Notes: generated by a model from the sequence alone, not told the origin. DNA of 64,000 nt from Moniliella sp. 'wahieum' (GCA_003971905.1 RSEE01000023.1:558001-622000); one strand, 5' to 3'; positions 632 to 58,701 are shown, numbered from the stretch's first letter. Made by a program: numbers and translations.

Positions 632-2538
632 AGCGATCGAATCGGAAATGGGGGAGGAACGGAGAAGGTGGGCAGGGGGGTGGAGGAGGAGGTAGGAGGA
701 GGCAGAGGGAGAGGAGGAGGTAGAGGAGGCGGAGGAGAACGCCAGGATTCTCTTTGGCAAGCGCAGTGAATATGTAGGAAGCCGTCCCCGGCAACCCGTC
801 GCTAGCCTTGCAAGCCAGGTTGTTAGGAACCGCCACGCGAGACCGGACGACGCGTGATGGAGTGATGCGTGACCGGTGCTGACTGGCAGACGGAGAGGTT
901 TTGCGGTGGCCGCTGTCCCCATGCGGGTGCCCATCCACTGGTTGCACCACTCCACTGTCGATCTGTGTCCGCACGAGGGCAGTGTGCTGATTCAACATTC
1001 ACCGGTCACAGCGGCATGCGCAGACGTCACCCGGCACAGGGCCTGTGCGCAGACGGCACGGCCCCACTGGCCCAGTGTAAGTCTCGGCATCTGGGCGATC
1101 ATCGATCAACGTGATCAGCACCGGTGGCCGGGACCTGCCGGGTTCTGCGGCAGCCGGCTGTGCCAGCGGCGCTCAGCCACGGCGGCACACGAAGCTCATG
1201 ACGCACATGAGCGATGCATCGCACACCTGGACATGCCACGGGAACAGTCGAGCGTCGGTTGCGAGTCTGCATGACGCATTGCCGGTTACAGCTGCCGGCA
1301 TTACCTGCATTACCCTCTACCGCGACGGCCAAAGTTGTCCGTCCCGAGTAGGACAACCGCAGTAGCCCTGCACTCACAACTCGGGCTGGAGCTTGTTGAA
1401 TACGTTGAATGTCGAAACACAAACACCCGTCGTGCTCGGCGTTCCGCTGGGCTTGGAAGATTGCGATACCATCAATATCATCATCGACACAGCCCCCGAG
1501 GAAACAAAGACCTTTGTGTGGCCCTGAGAATCTGCAACGCCATCAATCCAACGGGGAGGCACAGACGGTTTTAACGTTTACGCGTTACGTCGCACAGTCC
1601 AGGCTGCGCTGGCTGAGTGATGTGAGGCCCGTGGGGCCTGTAACATGTAAGGCTTCTCAGCACTCGGTGCAGTTGTGATTACTCAGTCCTCAAACTCGAG
1701 TTGCCATGAGCTATTCAGTACTCCGTACGCAACGTGTACTCAGCTGCGGAGTACGGGTACTATCCGAGGCTCGGTTGCATGGACCAAGTGCAAAGCAGTT
1801 AGAGGTGTCGATCCACAGCAAGCTAGCCTAGGCTATACCAAACCCACGCTAAACCCTAGGCTCAGCCTGAGCGGTCAGACTGACCGGGTTGAGTTCTGCG
1901 TTCAACTGAACGTTCAACACGTTCACCCCCAGCCGCATCGAGCCAGCCAACGAGGCCCAGCAGGCCCAGCCACGCCCAGCCACGCACCGGCGCCCATTGA
2001 ATATGGAGACGGCATGGCATAAGCTTTCCTTTCCGGTGGAGCTGGTGGGGCGGCTGAGAGCTGGCCAAGCGCTTCCTGGTCCTTCCGTGCCGGTGGATGT
2101 GTGCCTGATGTGGAGCTGCAGCCGCGCGGCGCTGCCTGGCGCTGCACACAGGCGGGATGCGGCTGCCGAAAAGGGGTGCGTGGAGGAGGCGTTTTTCAAA
2201 CCGCAGCACCCAAACTGGGCTGCGTTACTAGTTGATGCAGGTTCCTGCTGCACTGCGCCTCTGTTCTGGCGCCATGCCATACAGGCCACATGTCGCATGT
2301 CACATGTCACGGCTGCAGCCATGCCCCCCCCCGGATCGCCGCGTACACTCACCTGGTGCTGGCCATGTCGGATACCCGGTGCCCCCTTGCATCGCCTTGG
2401 CGCGGCACAGGGCCGCACCCAGCCGCAGTTGCAGCACGGAGGCAGTGGTGCCCTGTGGTGCCTGCCGGCCGGCTGCTCGGCGCCCTGTCTGTCAGATCTC
2501 AGATGGCAAACCACACGGCAGCCAGCCGGGTCCACTAC

Positions 2539-2547
2539 TATATAAAG
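2539..2547 (+). promoter_or_regulatory. TATA box of second DPBB gene
   Basis: TATATAAAG ~190 bp upstream of ATG 2733, followed by a CT-rich 5' UTR. Confidence 0.55.
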
Positions 2548-2732
2548 CTCCACCCGTGCCGCCACCGGCTCTGTTTCGCCTTCATCTCCATCTCCTACAC
2601 CCTCCCCGACTGCACGCTGGCGTGTATCCTCGACATCACCCTTCCTCTCCTCTCGTCTCTTCCTTCACCAAGCCTCTCTCTATAACACCTTCTACCCCCC
2701 CCCCTCTCTTTCTCCTACACTAGTCTTTTACA

Positions 2733-10304: not shown

Positions 10305-11113
10305 GGGGCGGGAGGAGACGTGAGGAAAGAGGGTGAAGGCGGAGGCGGGAGAGGTGAGGGTGAGGGGGGGGAGGATAGAGGCGCTGCGTTGGGGGCCAAT
10401 TTAAGTACGCGCGGCGTGGCGCCAGCAGCTGCGCCAGGTGCTTAGCTGCTTAGCTGGGCTGCGCCTGGCTGGCGCGGCGGGGGGCGGCCAGGATGTCCGT
10501 CCTGAGGGGGGACTGAGTAGGGGGGCCGACACAGCGGCGTGTCCGTCGTGTGCGGGGGGCTGACGCGCTGACGGGGCTGCGAGGGCGCGCGGCAGCTGTC
10601 GAGCACATGCCGCGCTCCACACTGGCGCCTGCCCGCCGTCCCACGCCGTCCGCCTGCCGCCCCCCCGCAGGCTGCGGCAGAATGGCCTGGACGCTGGCCT
10701 CTGAACATTGAACTGTTCAATACTGAAGACTGAGTACTGAAGCTTGAAGGCCATGCTTTCAACTTGCAAGTTGGGTGTTCCTTGGCATCATGCATCGGCT
10801 GCGGCTGCCATGCGCATGACATCATCGACGTGCACCGTGCGTACCCGCGTCACAGTGTATTTAGTGGCTACACTGACCCCGGCGCCGGGGTGCGTTCGCA
10901 GTTCGGCGCGTACACTAGGCAGGACGTGAGCGAACAGCGCCACCGAACGCGTGCGTCGACGTACAAGCGGCTCACCTCCCCCCTCCGCTGCTTTGTTGGG
11001 CCACGATCGCTTTAATTAGCTTGCTCTCTCTTATTAACCGCCTCGCCTACGCTGGTGCCGCTTCGTGTTGTGCCCCCACCACACTGCCGGGTGCCTGCTG
11101 CCGTCCCGTCATC

Positions 11114-13485: not shown

Positions 13486-15148
<1,663 letters not shown>

Positions 15149-17318: not shown

Positions 17319-20300
17319 GCCGCTGGTGGTTAAAGACGGGAGGGGGCGGGGAGAGGGCGGGGAGAGGGCGGGCAGGTGGGGGAAAAGAGCAGGCGGAAGC
17401 AGACCAGCTTCTGCAAGCGTCGCGTCGAACGGGGAAGATGGGCGGCAGGGGGACGGCGAGGCGGCGGCGGGGGGTGGGGGTATAAGTACACTACACTCCT
17501 CGGGTCTCTGACTGAGGCCTCCCGAGGTATGCAAAAAAGGCAAGAGAAAAGAGGGGTTAGGTACCGGAGACAGGCCCAGTCTGCACACCCGCTCAGGGCA
17601 TGCCTGAAATTCTGGCGAGCCGGCACACAGCGCAGCTGCCCAGTGCACGGAGCACACCTTGCCGTGTACGCACGAGCCCAGCCGCGGGGAAAACTGCCGG
17701 ACGACGGTGATCGATGACGAAGATATGACGCAGCGCGCTGCCCAGCTGGAGCACAGGGCCAGTGGTGTGCGGCACCGGTTTCACTGGAGCGGCTGCTGTT
17801 TCCATTCTTCGCAAGCGGCGTGCCGTGTATCACACTCAAAGCCGTGGGGGCAGCCTCTCCGAGATCTCACATACAAATCTCAATCGCATCCGCTCGCAGC
17901 AGTTTCCGCATGCAGAATGTGGCGAGCGTGCGCATGCTCCTCCAGCAGTCACGACTAGTCATCTAGTCGTACTCGTACTCAGTACTCGTGCATCATGCAC
18001 ATGCCCATGGTCAAACCCTCCCCTAGGGCCCAGCCATACGCTGAACTGAGCCCTTTTGGACGAAACCGCACATTCATCTGGCAACACTCCCATTCCAGTC
18101 TCCCCCCGCCATCCATCCCCATTTACGTCTTCTCGCTTGTGATGGAGATTTCTGTCGCCTCGCTTCTGCGCAGTTACTAGTTACGGGCTATGGGTTGCAT
18201 GCATGCCGTGCCTACATGGTTACAGGGCTATCGGCTGCATATGGTTACGCGTACGTCGGCACAGTGTGGCTGCGCGTCGCACGGCAGCTCCCGGCTCGGC
18301 CAAGCCGCTGCCGCGCGGCTTAGCACCGGTATAACCGGTATAACCTGGCATGGTGTAAAGCTTAAAGTGCATAGCATAACCGCCGCCTGCCCTCACTTGC
18401 CCTCCGAGCTTGAAAAGCATGTGAAGCGTCGAAATTCACATGCACCCACCACACCCTATACAGTGAGGAGGAGCGGTGACAGACTTGGACTTGTGACGAC
18501 GTGGCCAGCGACCGGTGATATTTTCCCATTGCAGAATTTATTCCTGCGGTGGCTGTGTGCAGTTGAGGCTCAACTGAACGTACTGAACGTGCACGTGCGA
18601 TGCACGGTGTGCGACACATGATCGAAGTGATCGATGTTGGGCGCTCCACGCAGGTCTTGTTTTCCGTATAGATGGTTGGGCAGGAAGGGTATCGGTGACC
18701 ACGTGAACTGAGAGAAGTCAATGATTAATGACGGGTGCCGTGGCCGCCGAGATCTGGGAGGTCCTAGGAAGGCGGGAGGCTAGAGTTGGCTATTGTAACT
18801 AGTGTCTTTGTTGCGCTGCAGCTTGGCCTTCTTGGCGAGCGTGGCGCATTAAGTGTGAGCGCGTAAGCCACAGGAAAAACAGGCTGTGCAGCTGTGACGC
18901 GGTGACGTTCAACGCGCAGTACACATTCGGGCCGCAGGGATGGACGCAGCGTACACACAGAGATAGCGTGCCCGCGCTGTATATCTCCCGATTGTACTTA
19001 CCTCGTATACATACCTCCTGTGGGCTCCGCGCGGCAGATGGCGGCAGAGTGGCGGTACGTTCTTTTTCCTTTTGCATTGTGACATGTACTGTGACGCGTG
19101 ACCGTCGCGCGCGAATCTGCATCAGGCCCTCAGGCCCTCAGGCCGGTCATCACCATCTCAAGATCTCTTCAAAAGTATATACTCACGACTCTTCCTCCAT
19201 CGATATGCTTCCGCTACAGTATTGCCATTTGACCAGCCGCATACTCACCACAGCGAGACACTTTCTGTGTCACAAGCATATACCTTTCACAACACCCATT
19301 CCTAGAGGATGGGCGCTTTTCATCGCATATATATGGACTCTATAATACTACCGTTTTTCTTTTTCCCCATCCGAGAAAGCCCGAGAGATCTTTTGGATCC
19401 CCCCCACCTCCTCTATCAGCAAACTTGCATTCAAAGGTTCACACCCCTCCCCAAAGCTCTGTTCATTTGAAACACATATTGCGCGCACTCTGTTCTCCAT
19501 GACCATCAGCTAACATCCGTCGACGTATCATGACGATATGTGCGTTAAATTCACCAGAGGAGAGCCCGTGTTTCTTGTCACATGTCATCCCGCCTCTTCA
19601 GAGGCATATTCGGAGAGCCACAGAGCGATATGTATTACGATCGATCATCGGGATTCTTCCTACCTCCTCTCATTTCATCGAATGTGCATACTCCCGGTAC
19701 TACTCACGTATACTGACCGTCGGATTTTGCAGGAAGAAATATATCACACAGAAAAGGACGTTTCTGACCGCAGGCCACCCTCAAGATATAGGAAGACAAG
19801 TAAGCACTTACACTACTAATATTTTGTGCGGTGGACGTTGATTCATCAACAGCATGGCCATCGCATATATACTGACTGATGCGGTTGTACACGCATTGTA
19901 AATGAGCACGAATACTGACTAACATTTAATGAGTTGTTACTATGTGCGACAACATCCTTCCGCCGTTTTTACTTGCAACACAGAAGAATGTTTAGAGACT
20001 CAATAAAGGCTCAACTGCCCACACAAAGGTGCTCATGGATGTTTTGGGAGCAACAGCCGTGGACCCTATAGGGGAAAACATTGATTCTCTCGCTCTAGCA
20101 CGCCTATGAGAGACACCGCGGCATAATGGGCTCGTATAAGCGCCAACGGTCACAATACCTTCGGCGATACCGGGACGGTAACTCGTCGGGGAGGGATTTA
20201 TACCAGTGGTCCAATCTTTGCAACATGATCTGCATGATCGGAAACCCTGTTGCCAACGGAGCTTAGTGGCACATCCATTCTTTTGCCAATGGAGAGATGT

Positions 20301-41600: not shown

Positions 41601-42329
41601 TCTCGATCATCTATACTTCTGATAGCTCAGACCGCGCCGTCTGCCTGCCGTAGTATGCCGCTACACTGTGAACCCATTCCCCACTATGGGTATGTCTTTC
41701 CTGGCAAGCCATATGAGGTGAAGGCAGCAAGGCAGCCACAGAAGGGGACAGTCAGAAGGATGCAGTTATAATCTCTTCGGCCGCCGTTTCCGACGATTCA
41801 CAAAAAGGATGTTGGATTTTCCGGTTTCCAGTACCACATATATTGTGGTAGATATATTGGGGTAGATTCTGATGGAGGCGGAAGGGGAACGCACCGTTTC
41901 TCACAGAGATAGATATAAGGCATGCCATTGTGTCCCATTCTCACGGATGGTTACATTGCAAAGCCCCAAACTCAATCACAATTCAGACTCAGGGGTAAGG
42001 GCATATTGGCGTGAGGTTACTAAGAGAAGCAAAATTGGAACTGCGACGGTCTGAAGCGGCAACTTACAGAGAGACGAAGGAACAACAGGGTAAGGCCTAA
42101 GGGGGCGATGAACCAAAGAGAAGGAAGAACTCACACAGGGGTGGGAAGCGTCGGGAAAAAGCACATCTGGGAGAGGCGGAGGAACTGTGCTTGGCGTCAT
42201 CGATCATCCGGGCCTTTATTGAACTCCCTCGTGCCCCCCTGTCGGACGACACTCCCATTCTCGGCGAGCCCACCGCTGTGAAGAAAAATGCCGAGATGTG
42301 TGGCGTAGGTAGATATATGGCCAGGCGTG

Positions 42330-44170
42330 CGGACTACTGAGAATGGTGAGATCTGAGACTAGGAGTGTTCGGATGATCAGGAATGGAGAGCTCGGAGGAT
42401 GTTCGATGATCGATGACCGGATGACCGGCCGATGACCACTGCAGAAGGATTTCGATAGGGGAAGCGTTTCTTCTTTTTGTCCCTGCTGTGACATGTGCGC
42501 GTTGTGAATGCGCTGAACGTATAACGTTGAAGCTGTTGAAGCTTGAAGCTCGAAGCTTGAAGGTTGAAGTTCTGCAAATGCTTAGTATGAATTCAGAATT
42601 CGTTGAACTTGAAGCATGAAGCCTAACGTCGAACGTGGTGAACATGGTGAACGTTGAACGTGTTGAACGTTGAACCCCAGGCCAGGGGTGGGATCTGGGG
42701 GAAGCGCAAGTCGTCCTGTGGACGTGCAGGACATGGGATGATTAATGATTGAGGAAGATATGTATAATGGATGATGGATGATGCAATGATGGGCTGAAAT
42801 GCACTAGCATGGGAGAAAATGCGGGCGCAGAGATCGCTCTCAGGGCATCAGCGCATCATGTGAATCATGTATCAGCGCTGCGCCATTAGTACTTAGTGCA
42901 TTAGTGCATTTGTGTTTAGCCAAGCGAAACAGCGCTCCCAATTAGACAATTGGAGAGCGTGAGACTGAGGCTGGGAGGGCTACCCTGGGCGCCTGGGCGG
43001 CGACACCACCAGTGCGCCAGGACGCCACGCAATGCCTATATGCGCCCATGAGATCATTACAACTGAGATCTGAGAGAGTGTCGGACGTTCTACTGTGGCG
43101 GTAAATGCTGTGACACTGAGGCTGAACTTGCTCGGTACTGAATCTGAGTACCGAGTGGCTGGAAGCTCTGAGGACGGGCCTGTATGTACTGTCTGCGGGA
43201 AACTACCGCCGTGCGGGCTGTGCTGACATGTGACATGTGACATGTGCGTGTGATACGCAGTGTTTCACTGCCAGACCAACTTGGTACTCAGTCTGAGATC
43301 TGGGGGGGTCTGAGGATCTGAGGCCCTGTGGCCTGAGCGCCTGAGCGTCTGTTGAACGCGCGGCGGAGTACCAGTAATTGTGTACCGAGCAAAACTTGGT
43401 CTGCGTCACGCGTCAGGGGCTGGTGTTAGTGCATGTTAGCCATGTTAGCAGCGCAGCTGTGCTAAACGTTAAACACGCTAAGCGCAATATCCAGTGGCAA
43501 CGTGGATCACCATCGTCACCGATCACATGCATCACAGGCACAGGTCGTCTGCTGCCCCCTATGTTTAACGTTTAACGTTTAACGTCGTACCTTTACGTTT
43601 ACGCGTTACGCGCTACGCGCCTTTACATCTACCACCTACCGCTCAGCGTACTTCACGCTTCACGAGCTTCACGTTTAACACGTTAATGTAGGCTACCGGT
43701 TTAACGGGTTAAACGTTAACGTTTAACGCAGGTTAACGCAGGTTAACTAGCGCTTACTTGCGCTTAAGCTTTGAGCGTCGAAATCTAAGAGAGTTACATA
43801 CGATGCATGCTTGCCTAGTACCCGGTACACGTTCTCGGTTCCCGCTCGGCTGGTAGATGTTTACCAGGTAATAAAAAACGCAAAAGTTCTTGGTTGAATC
43901 AATCGATAATGGATAGGAAAGGCTGTTCGAGACCTTGCTGTGGGCCGTATGGCCGTATCACCGGCGTCGGTGACCGGTGGTGAGGAGCTGTGGCTCGGTG
44001 CCCATGCCCAGGTTTGAAAGTTAACCTCTGTAGGAAAACCATTAATCAGTACTGAGACTCAGTACTCAGTCTGAGTACCGTTTAACCACACGTCACGCGC
44101 CACGCACCACGCGTCACGCATCACAATCGTTACATGTTTCATGCTCGGTGTTACATGTTAGGTACGTTTG
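42330..44170. repeat. Dense array of heptameric palindrome tandem repeats (xy-T-N-A-y'x')
   Basis: For example CTTGAAG/GTTGAAC runs at 42520-42675, (TGACATG)3 at 43224-43244, (GTTTAAC)3 at 43563-43583, (ACTCAGT)2 at 44057-44070. Confidence 0.85.
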
Positions 44171-44536
44171 ATCCTAAGCTTTTAGAACACAGGGCTCGGC
44201 CGCACGCCGATCATCTGTACGTGCATGTGCACATGGATATTGGATGCGCACATGCAGCGCTCCTGCTCACACTCACCAGACGCACTACCGGCACAATGCA
44301 AACCCTTTCCTTCTCCCGCCTGCCGCCCTGAGCGTGAGCACTGAAACGCCGCCCAGGCACCAAGGTGGTGCAACCTCTTACGTAACTCCATTTCTCTTAC
44401 CCGAATCACACTGGAGTCCATGCCCCTTCTACTATTTCCCCCTTTCCCTTTTCTCCATCCTCTCTGCGTCCTGTCTCCCCCGCCCTCCAACTACCACCGG
44501 CCACCAGCCCACTCCAACTGAAGCTTCCCATCAGGT

Positions 44537-45003: not shown

Positions 45004-45299
45004 ACACTCTGTGGCAGCATACCCTCGTCTCTGGTTCCTTCGACCTCTTCTTTGTTCTGCACCCCTCCGCACTGGGCTCGACCTATATTCGTTTTTTTCT
45101 CCGTTTTGCACATCAACTCTTTTTTGGTTACGACAGCGGTAAGCGCTATAGGCGCTACTCTATAATAAGGAGAAGACTGGCCTTATGGGCAATGGATTAC
45201 CCGTTATCGATTATCCCCGTTATGCGTTGTATTCTATACTCGTGTGCTGTTGTTATGTTACTGCACACATCCCAACGTTCCCAACAAAAATCAGTGTGT

Positions 45300-46000
45300 C
45301 GGTTTAGATCACGAGATCACAGAATATAGGTCACTGTCACATGCACAAGGGAACCTTGGGCCCCGCCCTGGCCTGAGGCCCTCAGGCGCAGGCCCCTGAA
45401 GCTTGAAGCTTGAAGCTTGAAGCTGAAGCTGGCAGCCCGCACATTCAGGGGGTGGGTGGTTGAACGAGTTGATGCTGGTCGCTGATCGAGATGATCCATC
45501 GATGTAATTTCGATGGGGACCTATGCCATCTATGCACTACCCTTCAAGCTGCAGCGCCTTCAGCGCTAGCTTCAGCGCCTTCAGCAATGGGTAACATGGG
45601 TAACCGGTAACAGCACGTGGTATCTGTGATGTGTGATGCACGATGGCCGATGCGCCGACCAGTAGTGCACCATACCCCGATGGGAAAGTTTTTTTTCATT
45701 CAAGCCGAGACAATAGGTGTCACTAGTGTCACATGTCACATGTAATGCATGTAAAACTAGTCACTAGTCACTAGAGTCACTAGTCACGCTATAAAAGGCA
45801 CGTTAGGCCTTAGGCCTTAGGATGTATTTAATGAAGCTCATCGGCCACCTTAGGCGTGGGGCGGCGTGAGGCCGTGATGTGTGAAGAGGCTTAAGGGCAC
45901 TCAGTGTACTCGTACTCCTTATAGTCCTTAGTGTTCTACTCAACGTACTCACTCAGGCCCAGGCCAGGCCCAGGCCTAGGTCTAACTATTAGTGACTTCT
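45300..46000. repeat. Second dense array of heptameric palindrome tandem repeats
   Basis: (CTTGAAG)3 at 45402-45422, TGTCACATGTCACATG ~45727-45742, (AGTCACT)2 at 45759-45772, (CCTTAGG)2 at 45808-45821. Confidence 0.85.
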
Positions 46001-46139
46001 GCCAAGCCCTAATACACTTCTCCTCGCGCTATATACAAAGAAAACATTGTTAGTTGCTTTCTTTGTTCCTCTCTTCCTCTTCCCCGGCACCTGCCATGGC
46101 CAGAAGATCTCAGAGACAATTAAGACATCATCTGCCCCG

Positions 46140-48050
46140 TCTCGTAAACTGTAACCCTAACCTAAATCGCGCATCGCATTTACCCCCGGCGTCTCTCTAG
46201 TAACTACCGGAAAGGGAAGAGGGAATTTAGGAGTTTATAGCGTCTCACCTTTATTGGAGAGGTTCCGCAATGGCCGGGATAGCTCAACGGTAGCATTGGC
46301 CTTCCATCTATGCTCTACTGTTGAGCCACCGGGTGGCTCGTGCTTTGGCCAATGTCATTTCAGTTCCTCCTCAGGCCTAGGAGTTCCGTTGTTTTTCTCT
46401 CCTGTTTTTCCTTGTTCTCCGCAGCTTAGCCCCTGGTGGCGACTCGCTGCATGATGTTCCTCAGTAGGCGTTGCTGGTTGGCTTAGACCACCACCACCAT
46501 CAGTGCGATTGCATCACCCTCGAGGACCAACCGGACTCCAGGTCTCATCATCTACATTAATGGAAATGGATCCATCAAGATTATTCCTCCCCCCCTGTAT
46601 CCACAGTTTACATCGTCTTCTCAAAAAATTCTGCACACATCCCAGCCGTTGCCGCATTATAGTTTGTTGATCTTTGTGGTGATGGGATGGGTAGAGAGGT
46701 CATCGAAGAAAGAAGAACTATTATGGATGGGTCTTCCTTGGCTTGTGCCCGAGCTGTTTGCCGTTGCCATTCTCTGTAGGGGTGTGGGTATAGGCTGCCA
46801 TCGAGGCGGAGGAAGAATGGGAATAAGAACATGTTGCTGTGGATGTCTCCATCACTAAATGGCTTCCCTTAACCCACCTAATCATAGCCGCAGAGGACGG
46901 CATAGGCATACGGACGAGCCTGATGAAGCTCATACGCCCCCTGATCCCACCTTGAATAATGACTTGAACTTGTTGGTGGAAAGGGAGGCACAGAAGTGTA
47001 GGCTCTGAGTTCAAGACCTGGACGTTAATTTTCCGCGACCTGTACGTCCCATTTTCGCCGCGAAGCTGTTCATATGGTTTCCTCTTGTTTCTCGCGGAGG
47101 GTGCGGGGAACCTGCTCTTTTCTTTGGACTTTTCTTGTTTTGACTAGTACTCTTTCCCGATCCTGGTTCAATGTGTGGGAAGCCATTTTCCCTGCTGGGT
47201 CTATGTTCCTGTCTGAGAACTGTCACGGGCTGCGGCGGACACGATGGTCCGACCGTAGCTAAGGCCCCCGGCTCCGCACATGCCCAGTAGAGCGTGCTCC
47301 GCAGGCCACCAAGTATGATGATGGTTGGTTGTACCCTGTGCGGTGGCACAAGGGCCATGCTCCGCGCGACAATAGTCGCCCACCGCCCAAGTCCAAGTCG
47401 GCCGGCCTAAATAAGGCCACCGAGCTTCCAATGCCGTGCGGCGTCTGCCGCCTCGTCCCCGTTTCCTTTTCCTTTCTCGGTCGCGCCTGCGGCGACCAAC
47501 CCCGCTTTTGACATGTCTTCCTTTCTACACCCCCCTCTTGTATCCGTTTCCCTTTTGATCCTGCCTGTACCCCTGGTTGATGGGGATCTTTTCCCCCACC
47601 TTCCATTCTCGTCCTTCTCGTCCTTTCTCGTCATCCTCTCGCCTTCCCGTCTATCCTGTCCGACTCCTGCCCGTTTCCAGCCAATTTATCCAGTACAGGC
47701 AGCTTCTCTTGTTAGCGTCCGACTTCTCCTCCGACCTCGTCCTCCAGCCCTTCGTCAGTCCAATCGCGCGAGCCCTCCTCTGGTCGCGGCGATTCCCAGT
47801 CTCTGTTGAGGCAGTGTTTGTCCCCCTCTGCCTCCCATCCCTAAGTCCCGGAGGCTTCAGACACGTTACTACGGCCCAAGCCGGTGCAGACGCAGCCTTG
47901 CCACACGTGCAGCCGCCCCACCAAAGGCCTCTCCTCGTCCCTAGCTCCGCTCGGACGCACCAACCAGCCTAAGCCCGAAACTACCGTGAGTCGACCTACC
48001 GTCGCCTAAGGGATTGTACCCCAAAACCCCCAGGGCGGGCCCCCTGGCGG
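46140..48050 (+). mobile_element. Degenerate tyrosine-recombinase (DIRS/Ngaro-like) element remnant, copy A
   Basis: Fragment TLSRSWFNVWEAIFP..NCHGLRR (HxLR box, 47145-47240), then a CT-rich tract and a ~210-bp 3' segment homologous to that of copy B. 5' boundary approximate. Confidence 0.45.
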
Positions 48051-51000
48051 CGCCCGCCCGTGACAAGAACCGCGGCGTTCTCTTTGCTTTACCCGTTTAT
48101 CCCACGCTGGGTTACTAATTCCTAAAATACTAACTGATCCTGTATATGTGACCGTTTTGATATCCATGCTACTTCACTCTATAGAGGACCAGGGTGTATC
48201 AAGATAATCATTTGTCGCATTTTGAGGAAGGGCAAGAGAGAGAGAGAAAAGATATTATTTATGCTATTCCAATAAGAGATGTGACGAGTCTATACAAGGC
48301 AAAGTCGTACACATAACCGAAGGGAAATCGTGGGGGGCATATCCGTGTCGTGTGATGTCTCTCTTCCCTGCCAGGGATTGGTCCTTAATGGACTCAACAA
48401 GCAACCCCTGCGTTTGTCCTAGTTTATTAGTGGCTGTAGAACATATACTCTCTACTGGGTCTTTCAGTTTCCCCTCCACCGGGCAGCTATGCCTTCCAAC
48501 TTTTCGCCAGGGGGCTCACCCGAGGGGGCTGAGGAGTACAATCCCTTGCATGTGCTAAAGTTGACTCACGGTAGTTGTGGCGCTTGGGCTGATTGGTGGG
48601 TCCGCGCGGGGCTCTAGGGACAAGGAGAGGCCTCTCGGCGTATAGCAGAGGCGGGTGCAAGTGTGGCAAGGTTGCGTAGCACCTCCGGCTTCGGTGCAGT
48701 AGCGTGTGTCTGAAGCCTTTGGGCTCAAGGGCGGGGAGAGGAAGGGGAGGACCCCCACTGCTGTTGGGGCTTGGAGAGCTGGACTGGGACTGGGGGCGGC
48801 GTGGCTCCGTTTGCGGCGTGGCTCCAAACGGGATCACACGCAGCTGAATTGAGCTGGACTTCGGCGTGGTACCTGAGAGACCGCGCGAACTGTGGGTTGT
48901 CTGAGGGACGGAAGGCTGAAGACGGGAGATGGAGAACGAGGACGGGAAGCGGAGAAGCAACTAAGCGGTGGAGTTGCCTGTACTGGGTTAATCAATAATT
49001 GGCGAAGAGAGTAAGGGGAGACGCCGAAGATGGATCGAGGGGGAAAACCACGAACTGCTGATAACAGACAAGGACTAAAAGGGAAACACACGCAATCGAG
49101 GAGAAGAACGTGGAACAGGGGGAAACAGGGAGACGGTTGCCGCAAGAGCAATCTAGAATGGCAAGGTAAACAGTCAAGGTGCGACTATCGTCGTCGCAAA
49201 GGAAAATACTGACAATTGGGTGGCCATGCGGTGGTCACCAATTCACTTGGGGAAGAGACGAGACTATTGCCGCGTGGATACGTAGAACTGGTAACCGTGC
49301 TGGCTGTCTCGCCAGCTGCGACCGAGCTGAGTTGGATCTGCGAGCATTCTATTGTTGGATAGAGCGGACGCACCTCAGCTGATATATCGGATCATATCGT
49401 CGAATCTGACCCCGTGGCCAAGGTGGGGACGGGGTTAGGAAGGCCAAGGGTGCGCGTAAGCTCCGCCGGGCTTGCGAGCCCGTTTTCACCCGTGACATCA
49501 CGATCCTCTTTACCAAGCGCGTCCCTCGCCCTTAAAGGAACGCGGCTTCCCTCTCTCTCAACATCGGGGAGGGTGTGAAGAAGTGTGCGCTTATAGCGCA
49601 CATCTCATTTCCACACTACGGTAAAACAATCGAGAGGTATGCCTTTTTGTCCTTAGGCCATTGGGCATACGATCGGCGTCACGTCCCTGTCTGCGCCGAT
49701 CAAACTTGGAACGGGGGATGGGTATTTGGATATTCGGCATGCCCCTGCTTCCTTCAGTCGTTAGGTATGCCATCCAAACTGGTTCTTGTTCGCACGCCCC
49801 TCCTTCCCTCGAACGTCGGGGGTGTGAGACAAAGCCATCTTGGGAGCAGGGGAACGGAGGGGGTAGAGGCGCTGTTGGCCCGCCGGCAAATACTCGCCTC
49901 TTCTGGGACTTAGGGGAGAGTATGGGCTCCCCTGTCCGCCTGCCTCTTACCAAACCTTCAAGTTCCGAGATTGTCGGGATCAGACCCACCTGATCACACA
50001 CATGGCCACCACGTTTAGCTGTGGGCCCTGAAGAGTTGTTCTAGACCTTGTTTCCCCCTTTGTCTATGCTCCCTTTCTTTGTCCGTATGAGACTCATCTC
50101 GCAAGTTGCCTTCTTCTCTTCCGAGAGACTGATATATATATCCGTCGCCTCCTTTCCACTCGATGAATACACGATACTCATAATCCTTTTCCACATCTCC
50201 AGATCTCCTGATATAGAGACTGCAGGCATGCTCGTCTTGCTCTCGTTCCGAGGCATACGCGGCCTTGGCCACGCGAGCTGACGCCCGGAATAAGAGGCCT
50301 CACCTCATACGTCATCCCTCCGCCTGGACCCCCCAATAACACGTTCAGGCGTCTTATAAACCGTATAAGTGATATCTTCTTCCCCGGTGCAACCCTCCCC
50401 CCTATAAACTCTGGATCGGGCCCCAGTCCGGGGTCCATCTATCAACAGTATAGATATCCATCCTGCGATGGTGACAATATATTCTTTTAGATACGTAACA
50501 GACCCCTGTGCCTTATTGCCCTCCAGGAGTGGTGCTTACCAGACTTGCGCAATGCAGTTACTCCCGCAAATTGGTGATGGGGGGAATGTCCTTGCCGTAT
50601 CGGTATCTTGGATGTACTCCCTATCTTCTGTTGTCTCGTGTGGGGGACGTGATGGGTGGGAAATAAACGGGTCCAAATCTGCGAATATAACTTGTAGCAT
50701 CATCTCCTCTGTTGACCCGGCCTTGAGCAAACTGCCAGAGAAACCACCTTGTTGACACCGCTGTCATAGGCTCCAGAACCCAAATTCAGAACCCAAATTC
50801 AAAGAGTTTCCTTAAGGTCTTCTGAAGCGTTTGTTCCACTTTTGGCGGCTATTTTGTCTCTGCAACACATGGCCTGTGATGCCATAATCCTGACGGAAGG
50901 GGCCGAATAAAAGCGACGCGGAAAGAAATCGTTTTCACAGTCTCTATCAGATGGCCGCATGACGATGGATGTTTCTTAGCATCCACTGGGCCCCTTTTTG

Positions 51001-51272
51001 GCATGAGGGCACTTATTGTCCCCAACTTTAGGGAACAGTGCAACTCAGAAGAGGGCTGGCAGAACACGACCCACAAAAAAGCAGAGGTCATCCTCATCGT
51101 TTTTACACCACGTTTTTCTTGTGGGCCACCGAGAGTCCAGTTTTTTCTCTTCATTTTCAGCTCGCCCCTATACATGCGCTTCCAACCTGGAAGCTGATAG
51201 GTGAAGTGCATGGTATTAGGATGAATCCCATCCGTGAGGAGGGCCAACCACACATCCGTACTGACGTATACC

Positions 51273-52801
51273 TGTTGGCCTAGGGAGCCGGACGGGCAGA
51301 AGGATGAGGAGAAGGTGATGGATTGGAGCCAGAGTTGGGTCTGGGTACAGAGGCATCTATATAGGAGGCTGGACTAGGCACAGGGACAGTGAGTCACCAG
51401 GAGAGAGTGCAGGGCACAGGGACAGTGACACGCAGGGACGTCAGCGTGGAAGCCGATGGAACCGAGGCGAACCTGGTCTACCGACTGGGAGCCAGAGGAT
51501 CACAGTCAACACCCCCGCTGGCCAGGGAACCCGGAGACATCGGTTGTGGGATGAGCCTGCCAGTGGATGTAGAGGGGAGGACTTGAGTGGCAACCGGGAC
51601 GAATGGCCTGGAGTTGTGCATGGCCACACGACTGGCCTACCCCCCGCTGTCCAGGATGACACCTGAACGAGCCGAGCGCTTGTGGTTGGTGTATTGTGCG
51701 ACCGCCAGATGCTTGTAGAAGTCTTAGAAGTAAAAGTAGTAGGGGTTGCGCCCCGAAGCGATTTGGTGGGCAAAAGTAAAAAGCACCAGTTATAGGTGTA
51801 GTGAAAGAAAATTGGAAACTTGGAGTAAATGCGGTCCAAGGTCGTTTGGCATCAAAATTGGATGCGTTTGGTAGTTGTTTGGTTCCGCATGCCTGGTGCC
51901 AGTGGGGTCCATTGGGCATGGGAAATGAACGGGCGCTATGCGTCAACCGTCTTGATCTGTTTGGGTTCTCTTTGTTGTTGAAAAAGAGGAGTGGAAGAAG
52001 TTGGGTGACCACCCCCCCCATCCTTTCCCCAGGTGCCCCGGATGAATTGGCAATCCGGGGCGTGTAGCCGTGGGTGGGGCACTTGATGAGCAGCCACCCC
52101 CGCTTTCTGCGATTCGCCTGCGCCGTTTTGTCGTTGGAGGAATTTCGTCTCGTTGACGATACCCGACACGTTTTGTTCCGTCGTGTGTTGTCCCTAAAAA
52201 TCATTGCCCCATCTGTGGGGGACGAGTGTGCCGATTGTGGCGGTAGTATGCCGATTGTGGCGGGTAGTATGCCGATTGTGGCGGTAAGGTGCCGATTGTG
52301 GCGGTGGTGTTGTTGGGCGGGAGGACGGGTGTGTCTTGTGGGCTTGGCGGCTTAGCTTGGGCTTGTAGGCTTGGGGGTGGGCTTGCTTGAAGAGCGCTCC
52401 CCTTCCGGGGGGATCAGATTGTAGCTCTGTTGGCCTAGGGAGCCGGACGGGCAGAAGGATGAGGAGAAGGTGATGGATTGGAGCCAGAGTTGGGTCTGGG
52501 TACAGAGGCATCTATATAGGAGGCTGGACTAGGCACAGGGACAGTGAGTCACACAGGAGAGAGTGCAGGGCACAGGGACAGTGACACGCAGGGACGTCAG
52601 CGTGGAAGCCGATGGAACCGAGGCGAACCTGGTCTACCGACTGGGAGCCAGAGGATCACAGTCAACACCCCCGCTGGCCAGGGAACCCGGAGACATCGGT
52701 TGTGGGATGAGCTCCTGCCAGTGGATGTAGAGAGGGGAGGACTTGAGTGGCAACCGGGACGAATGGCCTGGAGTTGTGCATGGCCACACGACTGGCCTAC
52801 A
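51273..52801 (-). mobile_element. Short non-autonomous LTR retroelement (~1.53 kb) with ATACC target-site duplication
   Basis: Near-identical ~370-bp direct repeats at 51273-51640 and 52428-52801. Termini TGTAGGCC...GGCCAACA (minus strand). ATACC at 51268-51272 and 52802-52806. TATA in the LTR, a G-rich PPT-like tract next to the 3' LTR, and a gag zinc-knuckle remnant inside. Confidence 0.92.
52229..52306. repeat. 4 x ~20-21-bp tandem repeat inside the LTR element
   Basis: TGCCGATTGTGGCGG(TAGTA) x4; reads PPQSA.. repeats on the minus strand. Confidence 0.85.
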
Positions 52802-53310
52802 ATACCTTCGACCCTCGACCGCGCTACAGCGGCTCCTCGGGGGGGGGAGTTGGCCAAAAGTATATATTTGAGGGTGCCGATCGGTGCAACAGCATCCCCA
52901 CATGGAATTGAGAAAGATTGACGTTGCAATTCTACGTTGGGAGCTTAGCGCATTCCCCTGCCTAACGGTCCCTTGGCCTTATCGGTGACCTGGTGACCGG
53001 TGACTCAGCGAACTCACTCCGAGGGCAGCACAGGAGCAGTGTGAAGGAAAACACTCCGTCGGCCCTGGGCCTGATCGATGACTGGCGACCGGTGACTGGC
53101 CCATGGGGCTGGGAGTGTCGAGGGCCTTCCTCAAGCTTGGCGCGTGATAATCATGCATGGCACGTGACACTGCGGTGAGCACTTCGGTACGCGCCTCCAT
53201 ACAGGCGCATCGGTCGCTTTCTCCCACCTCTGTCCCCATCCGCATCCAGCGCGTTCAGTCCGCGCGTCGCCAACCCAGCCACCGTCAGCACGCCCAAGAA
53301 GGAAGCGACC

Positions 53311-55435: not shown

Positions 55436-56687
55436 CCCTACTGCGAATGGTGGAGGGGTCAGTGGAAGCCGGAAGGGGGGGCGGTGGATGAACACAACAA
55501 GCGGAGGGAGGGGGAAGGCGCTGGGGGTGGCGCCGTACGCGAACACGGGCACTTACCTTGACTTGCTTGGTGGTGGACAGGCGGCAGTACCACGTCCGGG
55601 CGTCGGAGGGAGGCGAGGCGGGCAGGGGTGCCCACTAGTGCCCTGAGAATTTGCGAAACTGGCCAGGTGCTGAAGGGGTAGAGCTGTGAGTGGCCTGGTG
55701 CGGGCGTGAGTTTATTGCGCCGGGCCAGCCCTAGCCTGCGCTAGCACTGCGCGCGGCGGCGGTAGGGTCTGGCTGGCTGGGCGGAGCGGCGCAGTTGAAA
55801 GTTGCAGGGGATGGACGGCTGGTTTTGAAATGTGGAGGCGGGGCGCGGGGTCGGACGATGGCATGGATGACCTGCATGACACGGCCTGAGCGCTGGGCGG
55901 CAGAGCAGTGTGCGATTGAAAGCAAAGCTGAGCACTCGAATGCTTAACCCCGCTGGGGCAGCCGGAGAGACCAGGGTGACGAGGGTGACTAGGGTGACTA
56001 CGGGGCAGCACTGGGCAGCAGCCAGCACTCCCCCGAGAGTGGATACCGAGGACAGAGTGAGTTACCACTGTCATCGATCATCGATCACTTGTCCTCTTCC
56101 TCAGGCCGCGCTGGCCACACCACCGCCTCCTGGATGGGCTGCGGGAGGCCATGGCTGTACGCAGCGCCATTGGTGTGGTGGCCTCGGCGAGGCGGAAGCT
56201 GCCCGGCGCGACGAGCAGAGGAGGACAAGGCAAATGAAGCCAAGCAACAAGGGCCGCCAGGGGCCTATATTGTTGCAGATGCACATGGCAGCGCCCACAG
56301 AGGCGTACGCAGACAATGCCCGCGACGAGGCTCATCCATCTCATCATCCGTGGGGGAAGGTGGGCTGATATGCTGCCTGTGGCGCTGGCTGCTGCTCCAG
56401 CGTCTACCCGACTACGGACGGCTATCGACTGTCGGCTACCCCGGATGTGAAAGGGCGGGGCGGCACGGGGCTGGTGTGGGGTTAGGTGGCCGGCATCTGA
56501 ATCCGGCGGCGGTGGGGCGCACGGCCACACTCGCGGCGGGGTGTGCGGGGCAGGTTATTAGGCTCTATTGGCGATTGGTCAGCTCTTATAAAGCAGCACT
56601 GCTGCTTGCGCCCCGCAGCACCCGCCTCCTCTCCTCTCACACCCCCTGCCCCACCCTTGCCACCCCCCGCCTCCACCCCCCATCGCC

Positions 56688-58340
56688 ATGTCCGTCAAAA
56701 CCTTTTCCCGCGACGAGGTCGCCAAGCACAACACCCCAGGCGACACATGGATCGTGATTGATGCGACCGTGTACGATGTGAGCAAGTTTGCTGCCATGCA
56801 TCCGGGCGGCGAGGCGGTCCTACGACCCCGAGGTTGCTGGCGGCGATGCGACCGAGGCGTTTTATGGCCTGCACCGCGCCGACATTTTGAACAAGACCAT
56901 GGCCAAGCGCCTGGTCGTGGGGCAGATTGAAGGGGAGGAGCCCGAGGTACGCACCAAGGCAGTCGGTGCGCCTTCGCCTGTCCCTTTTGCCGAGCCCACC
57001 TGGCTGCACCCAGTGTTCAAGTCGCCGTACTACAAGGACTCGCACCGGCGTTTGCAGCGCGAGTTCCGCGCGTATGTCGAGGAGCACGTTATTGCCGTTG
57101 CGCGCGAGTGTGAGGCCAACGGCAAGCGTCCTCCGCTCGACTTGGTCAAGGATATGGGTGCCAAGCAGATCAATGCGATGCGCATGGGGCCTGGCAAGGT
57201 GCTCAAGGGCCGCAAACTGTTTGCCGATGTCAAGCCCGAGGAATTTGACTATTTCCACGAAATGATCTTGACCCAGGAACTGTCGCGGTCGGGAGTGCGT
57301 GGCTGGATGGATGGCCTGCAGGCCGGTATGGTCATTGGCCTCCCGCCCATTATCAACTTTGGCACCCCCGAGCTGCAGAAAGAGATTATCGAGCCCGTTC
57401 TCGCTGGCGAAAAGTTCATCTCGCTTGCTGTCACTGAGGCCTTTGCCGGGTCGGACGTCATGTCTATCCGTACCACTGCCCAAAAACAGAAGGACGGGTC
57501 GTACATTGTTAACGGGACCAAGAAGGTACGTTGTGTTGTTGCTAACCAAGCCCCGCCCCTCACCCTCTCGTGACGAGGACATACAAGACGCTGACATATG
57601 GGATGGTTTTTTTGCAGTGGATCACGAACGGTGTCTTCTCTGATTACTTCACGACGCTGGTTAAGCTCTTGGACGAAGAAGGCGAGGAGGGAGGGTTTGC
57701 AGTGCTGTGTATTCCGCGTGTGGAAGGGGTGGAGACAAAGCAGATCAAGACCCAGTACTCGACCACTGCTGGCACAGCCTTTATTACGTTTGACAATGTG
57801 CGCGTGCCGTCCAAGTACTTGGTGGGCGAAGAGGGGATGGGGATCATGGTCATCCTCTCCAACTTTAACCATGAGCGATGGGTGATGTGCTGCGGCACGA
57901 TCCGTGGCGCCCGCCTGATGCTAGAGGAGTGCATTACGTGGACCAGCCAGCGCAAGGCATTTGGCAAGCCGCTGACGTCGCAGGCGGTGGTGCGGCAAAA
58001 GCTGGGCCAGATGATGAGCGAGTGCGAGGCGGGGCAAGCTTGGCTCGAGGCTGTCACGTTCCAGATGAACCAGATGAGCTACAAGGAGCAGGCCAAGTAC
58101 CTGGCTGGCCACATGGCTTTGCTCAAGAGCTGGTCCACTGAGATCTCGACCAAGACGGCGAACGAGGCGATCAACTTGTTTGGTGGACGTGGCCTGACCA
58201 AGACTGGGCTCGGCGCCCTGGTTTCGGCGGCCCAGATGGGAACCAAGTTTGACGCCATCCTGGGTGGCACGGAAGACATTCTGCGTGACCTCGGTGTCCG
58301 GCAGGCACTGCGCTTTATGCCCAAGACGCACAAGATGTGA
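56688..58340 (+). CDS. Cytochrome b5 domain-acyl-CoA dehydrogenase
   Basis: b5: EVAKHNTPGDTWIVIDATVYDVSKFAAMHPGG..GGDATEAFYGLH. ACAD: SLAVTEAFAGSDV, YIVNGTKK|WITNG (intron ~57526-57617), QRKAFGKPL, FGGRGLT, ILGGTEDIL. TATAAA at 56587. Confidence 0.93.
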
Positions 58341-58701
58341 GAAGATGCACACTGTTCTTGCCGTTCAGGGTGAACATGTGACATGTGAACTCACACTATG
58401 GCGAACTTGCAAACTTGATGTTGATTGTCGACGACTGAATATTGATTGACCTACGCTTACACCACTTCGTGGCTCCGCTCCACTCACGCCGTTCTTTGCG
58501 GGACTCGTTCAGCTTTTATTTGTCAGACTCTGTCATCTTGGCTGTGCTCAGCCATGATTCTGTCTCCATAGCACGCCTCCCTATTCCCATTATTACCTCA
58601 ATGCAGACGAAAAAGGGTGGAGGGGGGCTGGCGGGAAGAATGATAGATTTGAACGAAAGGGGGGGGTACAACGAAGGGTACGACGAAAGTGGAACGTAAA
58701 C

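What the first reader, a model, noticed from the sequence alone, without database searches (positions are those of the whole stretch)
1090..58450. Intergenic DNA is filled with tandem 7-bp odd palindromes xy-T-N-A-y'x' of many different sequences
Seen: intergenic tracts repeatedly contain tandem (sometimes inverted) heptamers that share one symmetry rule but not one sequence. Examples: CATGATG x3 (38817-38837), CTTGAAG x3 (45402-45422; also 34561-34579), TGTGACA/TGTCACA (43224-43244, 45727, 58375), GTTTAAC x3 (43563-43583), GTTGAAC (42650-42675), ACTCAGT x2 (44057-44070), AGTCACT x2 (45759-45772), CCTTAGG x2 (45808-45821), AATGATT x2 (29618-29631), GGTGACC (52984-53004), GATCATC (56074-56088), GCTTAGC (10440-10456), plus CGTCACG and TGTTACA. 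Equivalently, a fixed T-N-A is separated by any 4-bp palindrome. By eye they are absent from exons and from the young LTR element. Established: ordinary slippage microsatellites are not palindrome-restricted, and a transcription-factor site would fix the sequence rather than only the symmetry. Inference: a process that cuts or primes at TNA and copies local flanks by fold-back. Candidates are repeated insertion/excision footprints of a TNA-targeting DNA transposon (PIF/Harbinger or CACTA-like 3-bp targets), or hairpin-templated repair synthesis. I know of no named repeat class like this.
Basis: partly seen in the sequence, partly recalled or inferred. Interest (0 to 1): 0.85.

Follow-up and report, generated by a model that had tools for sequence, protein, structure and literature searches.

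The report
Transposon scars building palindromic heptamer repeats
The palindromic 7-base repeats are real and look like scars left each time a jumping gene entered and left a T-N-A site, a process frequent enough here to have built new repeat DNA next to genes.

Summary
Perfect 7-bp tandem duplications number 30 against about 3 in shuffles. Nineteen have an odd-palindromic rotation, all with a T.A centre (0.015 expected).

The palindrome is a by-product, not the rule. The basic unit is a 12-mer, TNAab + rc(ab) + TNAab, or its mirror built from the two bases upstream of TNA. Removing one period leaves a site with only T-N-A and no palindrome.

Between two TNA copies 7 bp apart, the four bases are one of three things:
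- a palindrome made from the right flank (23);
- a palindrome made from the left flank (18);
- the plain flanks, giving a 7-bp direct duplication NNTNANN (10).

They are never both inverted halves (0). Period-8 and period-9 variants copy 1 or 2 upstream bases, never more.

This fits a 7-bp target-site duplication centred on TNA. Flank hairpins opened 2 nt from the tip would add the inverted bases, as in excision footprints of a cut-and-paste transposon. Repeat visits to the palindromic site add in-phase units.

The duplication is 7 bp, not 3. No element was found in the window, and no reads or relatives could be checked. I found no description of this in print. The fungus is probably Ustilaginomycotina.

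The parts
42301..44200 (.). Main hot tract, upstream of a small + strand gene whose ATG I read at 44537. It is dense in TNA-centred 7-bp footprints and arrays.
   Evidence: 89 TNA+4-bp-palindrome sites. 22 perfect events, 8.3% of the tract, can be removed by the rule. 23 model-consistent junctions fall in the 42-44 kb bin. Sequence read.
45201..46000 (.). Second hot tract, downstream of the same small gene.
   Evidence: 46 sites. 12 events, 11.0% of the tract.
38641..38880 (.). Hot tract directly upstream of a minus-strand gene start (my reading: ATG near 38646). It includes the array at 38812-38837.
   Evidence: 15 sites per 200 bp. 3 events, 8.8%. Sequence read.
38812..38837 (+). Clean-edged array TGATG(CA TGATG)x3. 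It keeps the frame W(xyW)n, starting at the T of TNA and ending 2 nt after the last TNA.
   Evidence: k=3, with no match in either flank.
34561..34579 (+). Clean-edged array TGAAG(CT TGAAG)x2.
   Evidence: k=2, with no flank match.
45803..45821 (+). Clean-edged array TTAGG(CC TTAGG)x2.
   Evidence: k=2, with no flank match.
42091..42102 (+). Single 12-mer footprint TAAGG CC TAAGG. Removing one period leaves TAAGG, a site with no palindrome.
10729..10749 (.). Two footprints that share one TGA. A left-flank type (ACTGA GT ACTGA) abuts a right-flank type (TGAAG CT TGAAG).
43651..43664 (+). Plain 7-bp direct duplication CTTCACG x2.0 with TCA at positions 3-5. This is a target-site duplication without inverted bases.
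   Evidence: One search gives exactly 2.0 copies, which fixes the frame..
45625..45638 (+). Plain 7-bp direct duplication TGTGATG x2.0 with TGA at positions 3-5.
18573..18590 (+). Period-9 variant: AC TGAAC + GT + AC TGAAC, then GT. The whole 7-bp NNTNANN is copied and 2 inverted bases are added.
19122..19144 (+). Period-8 variant: C TCAGG + CC + C TCAGG. One upstream base is copied and 2 inverted bases are added.
27301..27700 (.). Smaller tract upstream of the protein kinase gene.
   Evidence: 16 sites. Sequence read. Pfam Pkinase in frame 27582-28562.
17801..19700 (.). Smaller tracts of single footprints.
   Evidence: 7 events.
1001..2400 (.). Smaller tracts of single footprints.
   Evidence: 4 events.
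46001..52900 (.). Cold stretch with few long frames and no recognisable event. It serves as an internal contrast.
   Evidence: 0 events. No Pfam transposon or retroelement domain in the frames I scanned there.

Best explanation
The repeats are most likely excision footprints of a cut-and-paste DNA transposon, or of a nuclease derived from one.

Proposed steps:
1. The element inserts with a 7-bp staggered cut centred on the N of T-N-A. The target-site duplication is z1 z2 T N A a b.
2. On excision, both flanks are left as covalently closed hairpins exactly at the ends of the duplication.
3. Each hairpin is nicked 2 nt 3' of its tip. This gives 4-nt palindromic 3' overhangs: ab+rc(ab) on the left flank, and rc(z)+z on the bottom strand of the right flank.
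4. The overhangs are laid fully over each other and each strand is ligated. The net gain is 7 bp. One strand reads TNAab rc(ab) TNAab. The other reads z1z2TNA rc(z) z1z2TNA.
5. Replication or repair fixes one of the two.

Variants. Opening closer to the tip, or less overlap, gives a plain 7-bp duplication or the period-8 and period-9 forms.

Arrays. The product contains a perfect odd palindrome xyTNAy'x'. A further visit there yields two identical, fully complementary overhangs. Each cycle then adds exactly one in-phase heptamer, and slippage may also help.

Shown: the sequence geometry and its statistics. Inferred: the transposon, the hairpins, the nuclease that opens them, and end joining.
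For: 1. Elementary unit. 17 of the 22 motif-bearing period-7 runs with 5 matching positions (the 12-nt class) sit in 2 of the 7 possible frames (binomial p 3e-6). 11 of the 12 motif-bearing runs with 6 matching positions (13 nt) are the same frame plus one chance match. Clean-edged arrays of 19 and 26 nt keep that frame.
2. The four bases between two TNA copies, read with their flanks on the + strand (shuffle means in brackets): ab+rc(ab) 23 (0.25); rc(z)+z 18 (0.15); both readings, in a palindromic context, 15 (0.03); ab+z, a plain 7-bp duplication, 10 (0.17); rc(z)+rc(ab) 0 (0.12).
3. Left and right types are about equal, as expected if the two strands of one joint differ. Of 47 single junctions, 17 match the left flank only, 14 the right only, 6 both and 10 neither.
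4. The geometry is fixed. Two inverted bases plus 0, 1 or 2 copied upstream bases occur 71, 12 and 15 times (expected 0.4, 0.1, 0.1). With 3 or 4 upstream bases the count is 0 and 0. With 3 or 4 inverted bases it is 0 or 1 in every class.
5. The second TNA is a direct copy. The same N occurs 132 times against 4.7; the complementary N 16 against 5.5.
6. The inverted bases always mirror the end of the copied word away from TNA: 62 plus 9 ambiguous, against 1.
7. Six of the 11 non-palindromic perfect 7-bp arrays allow a frame with TNA at positions 3-5, by my reading. The two that are exactly 2.0 copies, CTTCACG and TGTGATG, are in that frame.
8. Location fits neutral scars. 0 of 66 junctions lie in 7,548 bp of Pfam-supported coding sequence. 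59 lie in the 27,949 bp outside long open frames.
9. A decay series suggests a long-running process. All 9 constraints are met 71 times against 0.5; 8 of 9 are met 89 times against 8.7.
10. Precedents read in papers. Flank hairpins and palindromic P-nucleotide footprints, with the Artemis-related Pso2, are reported for Ac/Ds in yeasts (PMC5873905, passages). DNA transposons with 7-bp duplications exist in Basidiomycota: hAT7 and Kyakuja (PMC12730594, passages and section 19). A TNA-targeting transposase group, NuwaII, occurs in fungi (PMC4482050, passages).
Against: - No element was found. None of the 40 longest frames, nor the 33 frames across 38.9-42.7 kb and 46.5-52.9 kb, matches a transposase or retroelement domain.
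- Among 1,823 pairs of identical NNTNANN 7-mers 40-12,000 bp apart, none flanks terminal inverted repeats. The single hit is two CTTGAAG arrays.
- The predicted no-overlap joint, TNA + two 4-bp palindromes + TNA, was not seen (0).
- Ligation across a mismatched 4-nt overlap is assumed, not shown, yet it would be the commonest outcome.
- The near-constant 2-nt inverted part is tidier than the mixed footprints reported for Ac/Ds. My search can only see footprints without deletions, which biases this.
- The density, at least 66 junctions in 64 kb, is far above what I know for transposon scars.
- Everything rests on one window. There are no reads, no second strain and no relative.
Confidence: 0.55

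Rival explanations
1. No transposon is involved. A host nuclease or a repair or replication quirk acts at T-N-A. One version is a 7-nt staggered break that is filled in and end-joined. Another is a polymerase that makes a 2-nt U-turn onto the complementary strand two bases past TNA and restarts at or just upstream of the T.
For: No element is seen in the window. Plain 7-bp duplications (10) need only a staggered cut plus fill-in. The constant 2-nt inverted part and the precise restart could reflect one enzyme's geometry. The event density is very high for transposon scars.
Against: Fill-in of a staggered break does not by itself produce inverted bases. A template switch needs two jumps without microhomology, since flanks next to clean 12-mers do not match. 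It also does not explain why the left-flank and right-flank palindromes are about equally common (18 against 23) and never combined (0). I know of no host enzyme with TNA-centred 7-nt staggered cutting (recalled, not searched).
Confidence: 0.22
2. One reading: footprints of a transposon with a 3-bp TNA target duplication, of the PIF/Harbinger, NuwaII or CACTA kind.
For: T-N-A is the only fixed sequence. A TNA / C|TNA|G target group, NuwaII, is reported from fungi (PMC4482050, passages).
Against: TNATNA is not enriched (47 against 39.5). The direct copy extends 2 nt on each side of TNA. By my reading of the flanks listed, there is no C..G preference around TNA. The 4-bp palindromes come from the local flanks, not from fixed element ends.
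Confidence: 0.05
3. These are ordinary microsatellites. Palindromic heptamers slip more easily because arrays of them can form hairpins, so they expand and persist.
For: Arrays of 2-4 units exist. Slippage would keep the frame of an existing run.
Against: Slippage cannot create the first copy, because the two inverted bases are absent from the pre-event site. It predicts palindromes with any centre, but only T.A is seen: 19 against 0 for the other three centres. It does not explain the single 12-mers, which are the majority (47 of 54 chains).
Confidence: 0.05
4. The tracts are selected regulatory arrays, that is, binding sites for dimeric factors in promoters.
For: They lie next to genes. Some perfect 10-bp palindromes nearby look like heat-shock elements (the motif is recalled).
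Against: By my reading of the arrays and single footprints, at least 12 of the 16 possible 4-bp palindromes occur in them. N and the flanks are free. The exact run boundaries and the dependence on flank sequence are marks of a mutation process, not of a binding site.
Confidence: 0.03
5. An assembly or base-calling artefact.
For: No reads could be laid on the window.
Against: The events avoid coding sequence (0 of 66 in 7,548 bp). They show a decay series by point substitution. They obey a flank-dependent rule that no sequencing error mode I know would produce.
Confidence: 0.02

Closest known systems
Excision footprints of flank-hairpin transposases, with P nucleotides as in V(D)J coding joints (RAG/Transib; Ac/Ds and other hAT elements)
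   Same: A target-site duplication is kept on both flanks. Short palindromic additions derive from the flank ends. The hairpins are opened a couple of bases from the tip and the ends are then joined. The Ac/Ds case in Candida and S. cerevisiae is from PMC5873905 (passages). The RAG and Artemis details are recalled.
   Different: Here the palindromes are even, meaning the tip lies between two base pairs. hAT footprints are centred on the complement of the base next to the element; that signature fits 1 of 63 unexplained spacers. The duplication is 7 bp, not 8 (hAT) or 5 (Transib/RAG, recalled). The outcome is unusually uniform and extremely dense.
Basidiomycete DNA transposons with 7-bp target-site duplications: hAT7 (Pucciniales) and Kyakuja of the KDZ group (Agaricomycotina)
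   Same: A 7-bp duplication in Basidiomycota (PMC12730594, passages and section 19).
   Different: Neither group is reported from Ustilaginomycotina in the text I read: a word search of the main text for 'Ustilagin' found 0 occurrences. Their target consensus and excision chemistry are not given there. No such element or transposase is in this window.
PHIS superfamily groups with TNA-type targets: NuwaII C|TNA|G and PIF/Harbinger TWA
   Same: T-N-A is the target core, and the groups are present in fungi (PMC4482050, passages).
   Different: They make 3-bp duplications. Here the duplication is 7 bp, and TNATNA is not enriched.
Tn10/IS10 target hotspot NGCTNAGCN (recalled from memory, not checked here)
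   Same: A symmetric target with T-N-A at the centre of the duplicated segment.
   Different: It is bacterial, makes a 9-bp duplication and has fixed GC arms. It leaves no footprints of this kind.
Cryptic simplicity, or microsatellite birth by slippage (recalled concept)
   Same: Local short tandem duplications pile up in non-coding DNA. Arrays can grow in phase.
   Different: Slippage is not site-specific and adds no inverted bases. See the rival explanation.

Membership tests
Cut-and-paste transposon excision footprint (TSD + P nucleotides) | A direct duplication of fixed length at the site (the TSD) | tested here: met
   The duplication spans at most 2+TNA+2 = 7 bp. With 2 inverted bases, 0, 1 or 2 copied upstream bases occur 71, 12 and 15 times, and 3 or 4 never. 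Plain NNTNANN duplications number 10 against 0.17 expected.
Cut-and-paste transposon excision footprint (TSD + P nucleotides) | Palindromic additions derived from the flank ends at the junction | tested here: met
   ab+rc(ab) 23, rc(z)+z 18, never both inverted halves (0). The inverted bases mirror the distal end in 62+9 cases against 1.
Cut-and-paste transposon excision footprint (TSD + P nucleotides) | An element with that TSD, or its transposase, exists in the genome | tested here: inconclusive
   None in the 64-kb window. The whole genome is not held.
Cut-and-paste transposon excision footprint (TSD + P nucleotides) | Filled, empty and scarred alleles at the same site among strains | not testable with these tools
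   No sequencing run was listed. The only close relatives are unnamed proteins at 90% and 84% identity whose DNA cannot be fetched.
PIF/Harbinger / NuwaII / CACTA (3-bp TSD) | A 3-bp duplication of the TNA / TWA target | tested here: not met
   TNATNA 47 against 39.5. The duplication is 7 bp.
hAT (including hAT7) | Footprints centred on the complement of the base next to the element (odd hairpin) | tested here: not met
   1 of 63 otherwise unexplained spacers fits. The observed palindromes are even.
hAT (including hAT7) | TSD length: 8 bp for hAT, 7 bp for hAT7 | tested here: inconclusive
   7 bp fits hAT7 only (PMC12730594). The hAT target pattern nTnnnnAn is recalled and does not match NNTNANN.
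Kyakuja (KDZ) | 7-bp TSD; CA..TG termini; KDZ transposase | tested here: inconclusive
   The TSD length fits. Termini and transposase cannot be tested without an element.
Transib/RAG-like | Even flank hairpins with P nucleotides; 5-bp TSD | tested here: not met
   The even palindromes fit. A plain 5-bp duplication of TNAab (no inverted bases, no upstream bases) is at chance: 5 against 5.0. The duplication is 7 bp. The 5-bp figure for Transib is recalled.
Slippage microsatellite | The unit pre-exists and copies are added without new sequence | tested here: not met
   The two inverted bases are absent from the pre-event site.

The most novel reading that the evidence does not exclude
A Ustilaginomycotina fungus harbours an undescribed, highly active cut-and-paste element, or a domesticated transposase, that cuts NNTNANN with a 7-bp stagger and uses RAG-like even flank hairpins. 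Its scars are so frequent near genes that they continuously create and extend palindromic heptamer microsatellites. That would make it a dedicated generator of new promoter-proximal DNA and of regulatory variation.
Probability: 0.3. Interest if true: 0.85.

Novelty: new variant of a known kind. Interest (0 to 1): 0.7.

Why it matters
If this reading is right, a whole mechanism can be read from genome sequence alone: target choice, stagger length, hairpin geometry and the joining step. It would show that transposon visits, not slippage, can give birth to a class of microsatellites. It would also show that such scars can make up about a tenth of some gene-flanking tracts.

It gives a concrete handle for finding the responsible element or enzyme in Ustilaginomycotina. 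The same rule could be used as a simple sequence test on other genomes.

If no element exists, the same rule defines a new site-specific mutational signature that still needs an enzyme.

Tried and rejected
Data I could not get:
- Whole genome: none is held.
- Sequencing runs: none was listed.
- Earlier notes of this scan: nothing on this genome or sequence. Only bacterial heptamer hairpins on other genomes came up, and I did not use them.
- Relatives: the one metagenome scan, with the ATP synthase beta frame, returned 80 loci at 69-82% identity and none close. I used them only as a negative control.
- Unnamed proteins at 90% and 84% identity exist, but their DNA could not be fetched.

Searches that found nothing useful:
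- Pfam scans gave no transposon domain in the window. One search failed because one reference I gave held stop codons. I dropped that reference and one other and re-sent the rest.
- The scan for elements flanked by NNTNANN repeats plus terminal inverted repeats found none.
- Literature searches for a description of the pattern found none. Two of them listed the three papers I then read in part.

Mechanisms I considered and dropped:
1. A palindromic 7-bp target preference. Isolated palindromes are not enriched, and the pre-event site is not palindromic.
2. A 5-bp duplication with one-sided P nucleotides. The period-8 and period-9 classes and the left/right symmetry replace it.
3. Fold-back priming of a 3' end through a T.A pair. 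It predicts a complementary N or longer arms.
4. A double Top1 cut at TNA forming hairpins. It explains T..A but not the tandem copy. This is reasoning only.
5. Flap ligation during lagging-strand synthesis. Reasoning only.
6. hAT-type odd hairpins.

One unexplained count: TNA + 2-bp palindrome + TNA is depleted (2 against 16.9).

Full report
**What the window is.** The window is fungal nuclear DNA. I read introns of the GTACGT...CTGAC...CAG type. Pfam hits include ATP synthase beta, prolyl-tRNA synthetase, a HAMP-repeat histidine kinase, a protein kinase and an acyl-CoA dehydrogenase.

The best named relatives of the prolyl-tRNA synthetase frame are all Ustilaginomycotina. The top named hit is Tilletiaria anomala at 67%, followed by Malassezia, Violaceomyces, Ustilago and others. 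Two unnamed proteins reach 90% and 84%. The ATP synthase frame points the same way but is too conserved to be decisive. No whole genome is held and no sequencing run was listed. Everything below therefore rests on this one window.

**Checking the observation.** Two details differ. GCTTAGC at 10439 has period 8. GGTGACC at 52983 is imperfect.

- Perfect period-7 duplications number 30 against 3.7 in dinucleotide shuffles.
- Nineteen of the 30 have an odd-palindromic rotation, all with a T.A centre. Over 200 shuffles the expectation is 0.015 for T.A and 0.31 for the other three centres together, of which none is observed.
- Among 16 classes 'X.Y followed by a 4-bp palindrome', only T.A stands out: 556 against 345 +/- 21.
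- Such sites are spaced 7 bp apart 50 times against 0.5 expected. Spacings of 9 and 8 bp come next.
- My 12-mer pattern occurs 71 times in the window, against 1.5 per 64 kb in 709,823 bases of unrelated metagenome loci.

The pattern is not spread evenly over non-coding DNA. 36 of 66 junctions lie in 42-46 kb. 46.0-52.9 kb has none and 39.0-42.3 kb has three.

**The palindrome is a product, not a target.** Isolated T.A-centred 7-palindromes are not enriched (201 against 184).

The decisive point is where the periodic runs begin and end. Among period-7 runs with exactly 5 matching positions (12 nt) that carry the motif, 17 of 22 sit in two of the seven possible frames (p = 3e-6). These frames are TNAab-rc(ab)-TNAab and its reverse complement. 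Of the motif-bearing runs with 6 matching positions (13 nt), 11 of 12 are that frame plus one chance match. Clean-edged arrays of 19 nt (34561, 45803) and 26 nt (38812) keep the same frame.

Removing one period from a 12-nt run leaves only TNAab. The site before the event had T-N-A and nothing palindromic. The event added seven bases, and two of them are an inverted copy of 'ab'.

Both T and A are needed: 71 cases against 0.3 expected, with the other base pairs at chance. The 11 cases with a different first base are mostly C, as expected from later T-to-C change. The second TNA carries the same N (132 against 4.7), not the complementary one (16 against 5.5), so it is a direct copy. The inverted pair always mirrors the end of the copied word away from TNA: 62 plus 9 ambiguous, against 1.

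**The duplication is 7 bp and symmetric about N.** The period-8 and period-9 arrays gave this away. Most have the form zTNAab + rc(ab) (12 of 23 hits) or zzTNAab + rc(ab) (15 of 25 hits).

A table of 'inverted bases added' against 'upstream bases copied' shows the limits. With 2 inverted bases, 0, 1 or 2 upstream bases are copied 71, 12 and 15 times (expected 0.4, 0.1, 0.1). Three or four upstream bases are never copied. Three or four inverted bases occur 0 or 1 times in every class.

I then read every z1z2-TNA-S-TNA-ab on the + strand (shuffle means in brackets). The four bases S are:
- ab+rc(ab): 23 (0.25);
- rc(z)+z: 18 (0.15);
- both readings at once, in a palindromic context: 15 (0.03);
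- ab+z, a plain 7-bp direct duplication of NNTNANN: 10 (0.17);
- rc(z)+rc(ab): 0 (0.12).

Two non-palindromic arrays of exactly two copies, CTTCACG and TGTGATG, have TNA at positions 3-5 of the duplicated word.

**Mechanism (inferred).** These counts are what one expects from a 7-bp target-site duplication centred on TNA whose two copies later meet again as hairpin-capped ends.

If each hairpin is nicked 2 nt 3' of its tip, the left flank ends in the 3' overhang ab+rc(ab). The right flank's bottom strand ends in rc(z)+z. Both recessed 5' ends then start exactly at the T of TNA. With the overhangs fully overlapped, both strands can be sealed. The net gain is 7 bp. One strand carries the right-flank palindrome and the other the left-flank palindrome.

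This explains four things:
- why the two types are about equally common (17 left-only and 14 right-only among 47 single junctions);
- why they are never combined;
- why no palindrome is ever built on the TNA end;
- why less overlap, or opening nearer the tip, gives periods 8 and 9 or the plain duplication.

The product contains a perfect xyTNAy'x'. A later visit there would produce two identical, fully complementary overhangs, so each cycle adds one in-phase heptamer. That would account for the arrays and for their being palindromic. Slippage may add to this.

A staggered cut that duplicates the target, followed by flank hairpins, is the known chemistry of several cut-and-paste transposases. 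Passages in PMC5873905 describe P-nucleotide footprints of Ac/Ds in yeasts and the Artemis-related Pso2. The 2-nt opening rule of Artemis is recalled, not read.

The hAT-specific signature is a palindrome centred on the complement of the base next to the element. It is absent here: 1 of 63. The hairpins implied are of the even, RAG/Transib type.

**Where it sits and how old it is.** No junction lies in 7,548 bp of Pfam-supported coding sequence. 59 of 66 lie in the 27,949 bp outside long open frames. Hot tracts flank genes on either side.

Patterns meeting all nine constraints (71 against 0.5) are accompanied by as many with one constraint broken (89 against 8.7). The failures are spread over all nine constraints. 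This suggests continuing production and decay rather than one burst. Recognisable events make up 8-11% of the two hot tracts.

**What speaks against the reading.**
- No element or transposase is in the window.
- The no-overlap joint was not seen.
- Sealing across a mismatched 4-nt overlap is assumed.
- The footprints are more uniform than those reported for Ac/Ds, although my patterns can only detect footprints without deletions.
- The density is extraordinary.

A transposon-free nuclease, or a polymerase U-turn, remains possible. I rate it lower because it does not naturally give the left/right symmetry.

The other rivals do worse. A 3-bp TNA duplication is contradicted (TNATNA 47 against 39.5). 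Slippage alone cannot make the first copy. A binding-site reading does not fit the free choice of palindrome or the flank dependence. An artefact does not fit the avoidance of coding sequence or the decay series.

**Comparison with what is known.** Transposon excision footprints with P nucleotides are textbook. DNA transposons with 7-bp duplications are described in Basidiomycota: hAT7 in rusts and Kyakuja in Agaricomycotina (PMC12730594, passages and section 19). A TNA-targeting group, NuwaII, has 3-bp duplications (PMC4482050, passages).

I found no description of three things: a TNA-centred 7-bp target, even-hairpin scars in fungi, or palindromic heptamer microsatellites born from such scars. 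Figures and supplements of the transposon papers, which might show target logos, were not seen.

I therefore file this as a new variant of a known kind. An undescribed element or enzyme behind it remains a real possibility.

Noticed in passing
51272-52800: Three blocks of 126, 159 and 70 nt are repeated at 100% identity with a spacing of 1155-1160 bp. This is a very young direct duplication of about 1.16 kb, or an LTR-like pair. No retroelement domain was found nearby.
   Followed up: partly
1907, 38779, 38858 (TGAACGTTCA) and 38845 (TCAACGTTGA): Four of the eight perfect 10-bp palindromes of the form TNA-4pal-TN'A have an ACGT core. The three TGAACGTTCA copies contain GAAnnTTC, which resembles a heat-shock element (motif recalled). 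Three of the four sit just upstream of the minus-strand gene start near 38646. They may be real binding sites rather than scars.
   Followed up: no
42536-42569 and 45397-45430: Two CTTGAAG arrays in the same orientation lie 2.87 kb apart and bracket the small gene at 44537 and its hot upstream tract. This could be coincidence, or an old insertion into one array.
   Followed up: no
whole window: TNA + 2-bp palindrome + TNA (same N) is depleted: 2 against 16.9 in shuffles. I have no explanation.
   Followed up: no
58878-59984: A dense run of hexamer and 12- or 18-mer repeats (TCGGAA, GAGCCA, CAGAAT, GAGCCC, GAGCGA, TTCGGG). Because the periods are multiples of three, I guess it is a low-complexity coding region. 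It is unrelated to the heptamer signature.
   Followed up: no
42001-46000: GC skew flips from +0.158 (42-44 kb) to -0.126 (44-46 kb). By eye, this matches a switch from TGA-type to TCA/TTA-type units along the hot tract.
   Followed up: no
29630-33600: A group III-like hybrid histidine kinase with repeated HAMP domains and an HATPase domain. A footprint array (AATGATT x2.6) lies right at the putative start of its frame.
   Followed up: no
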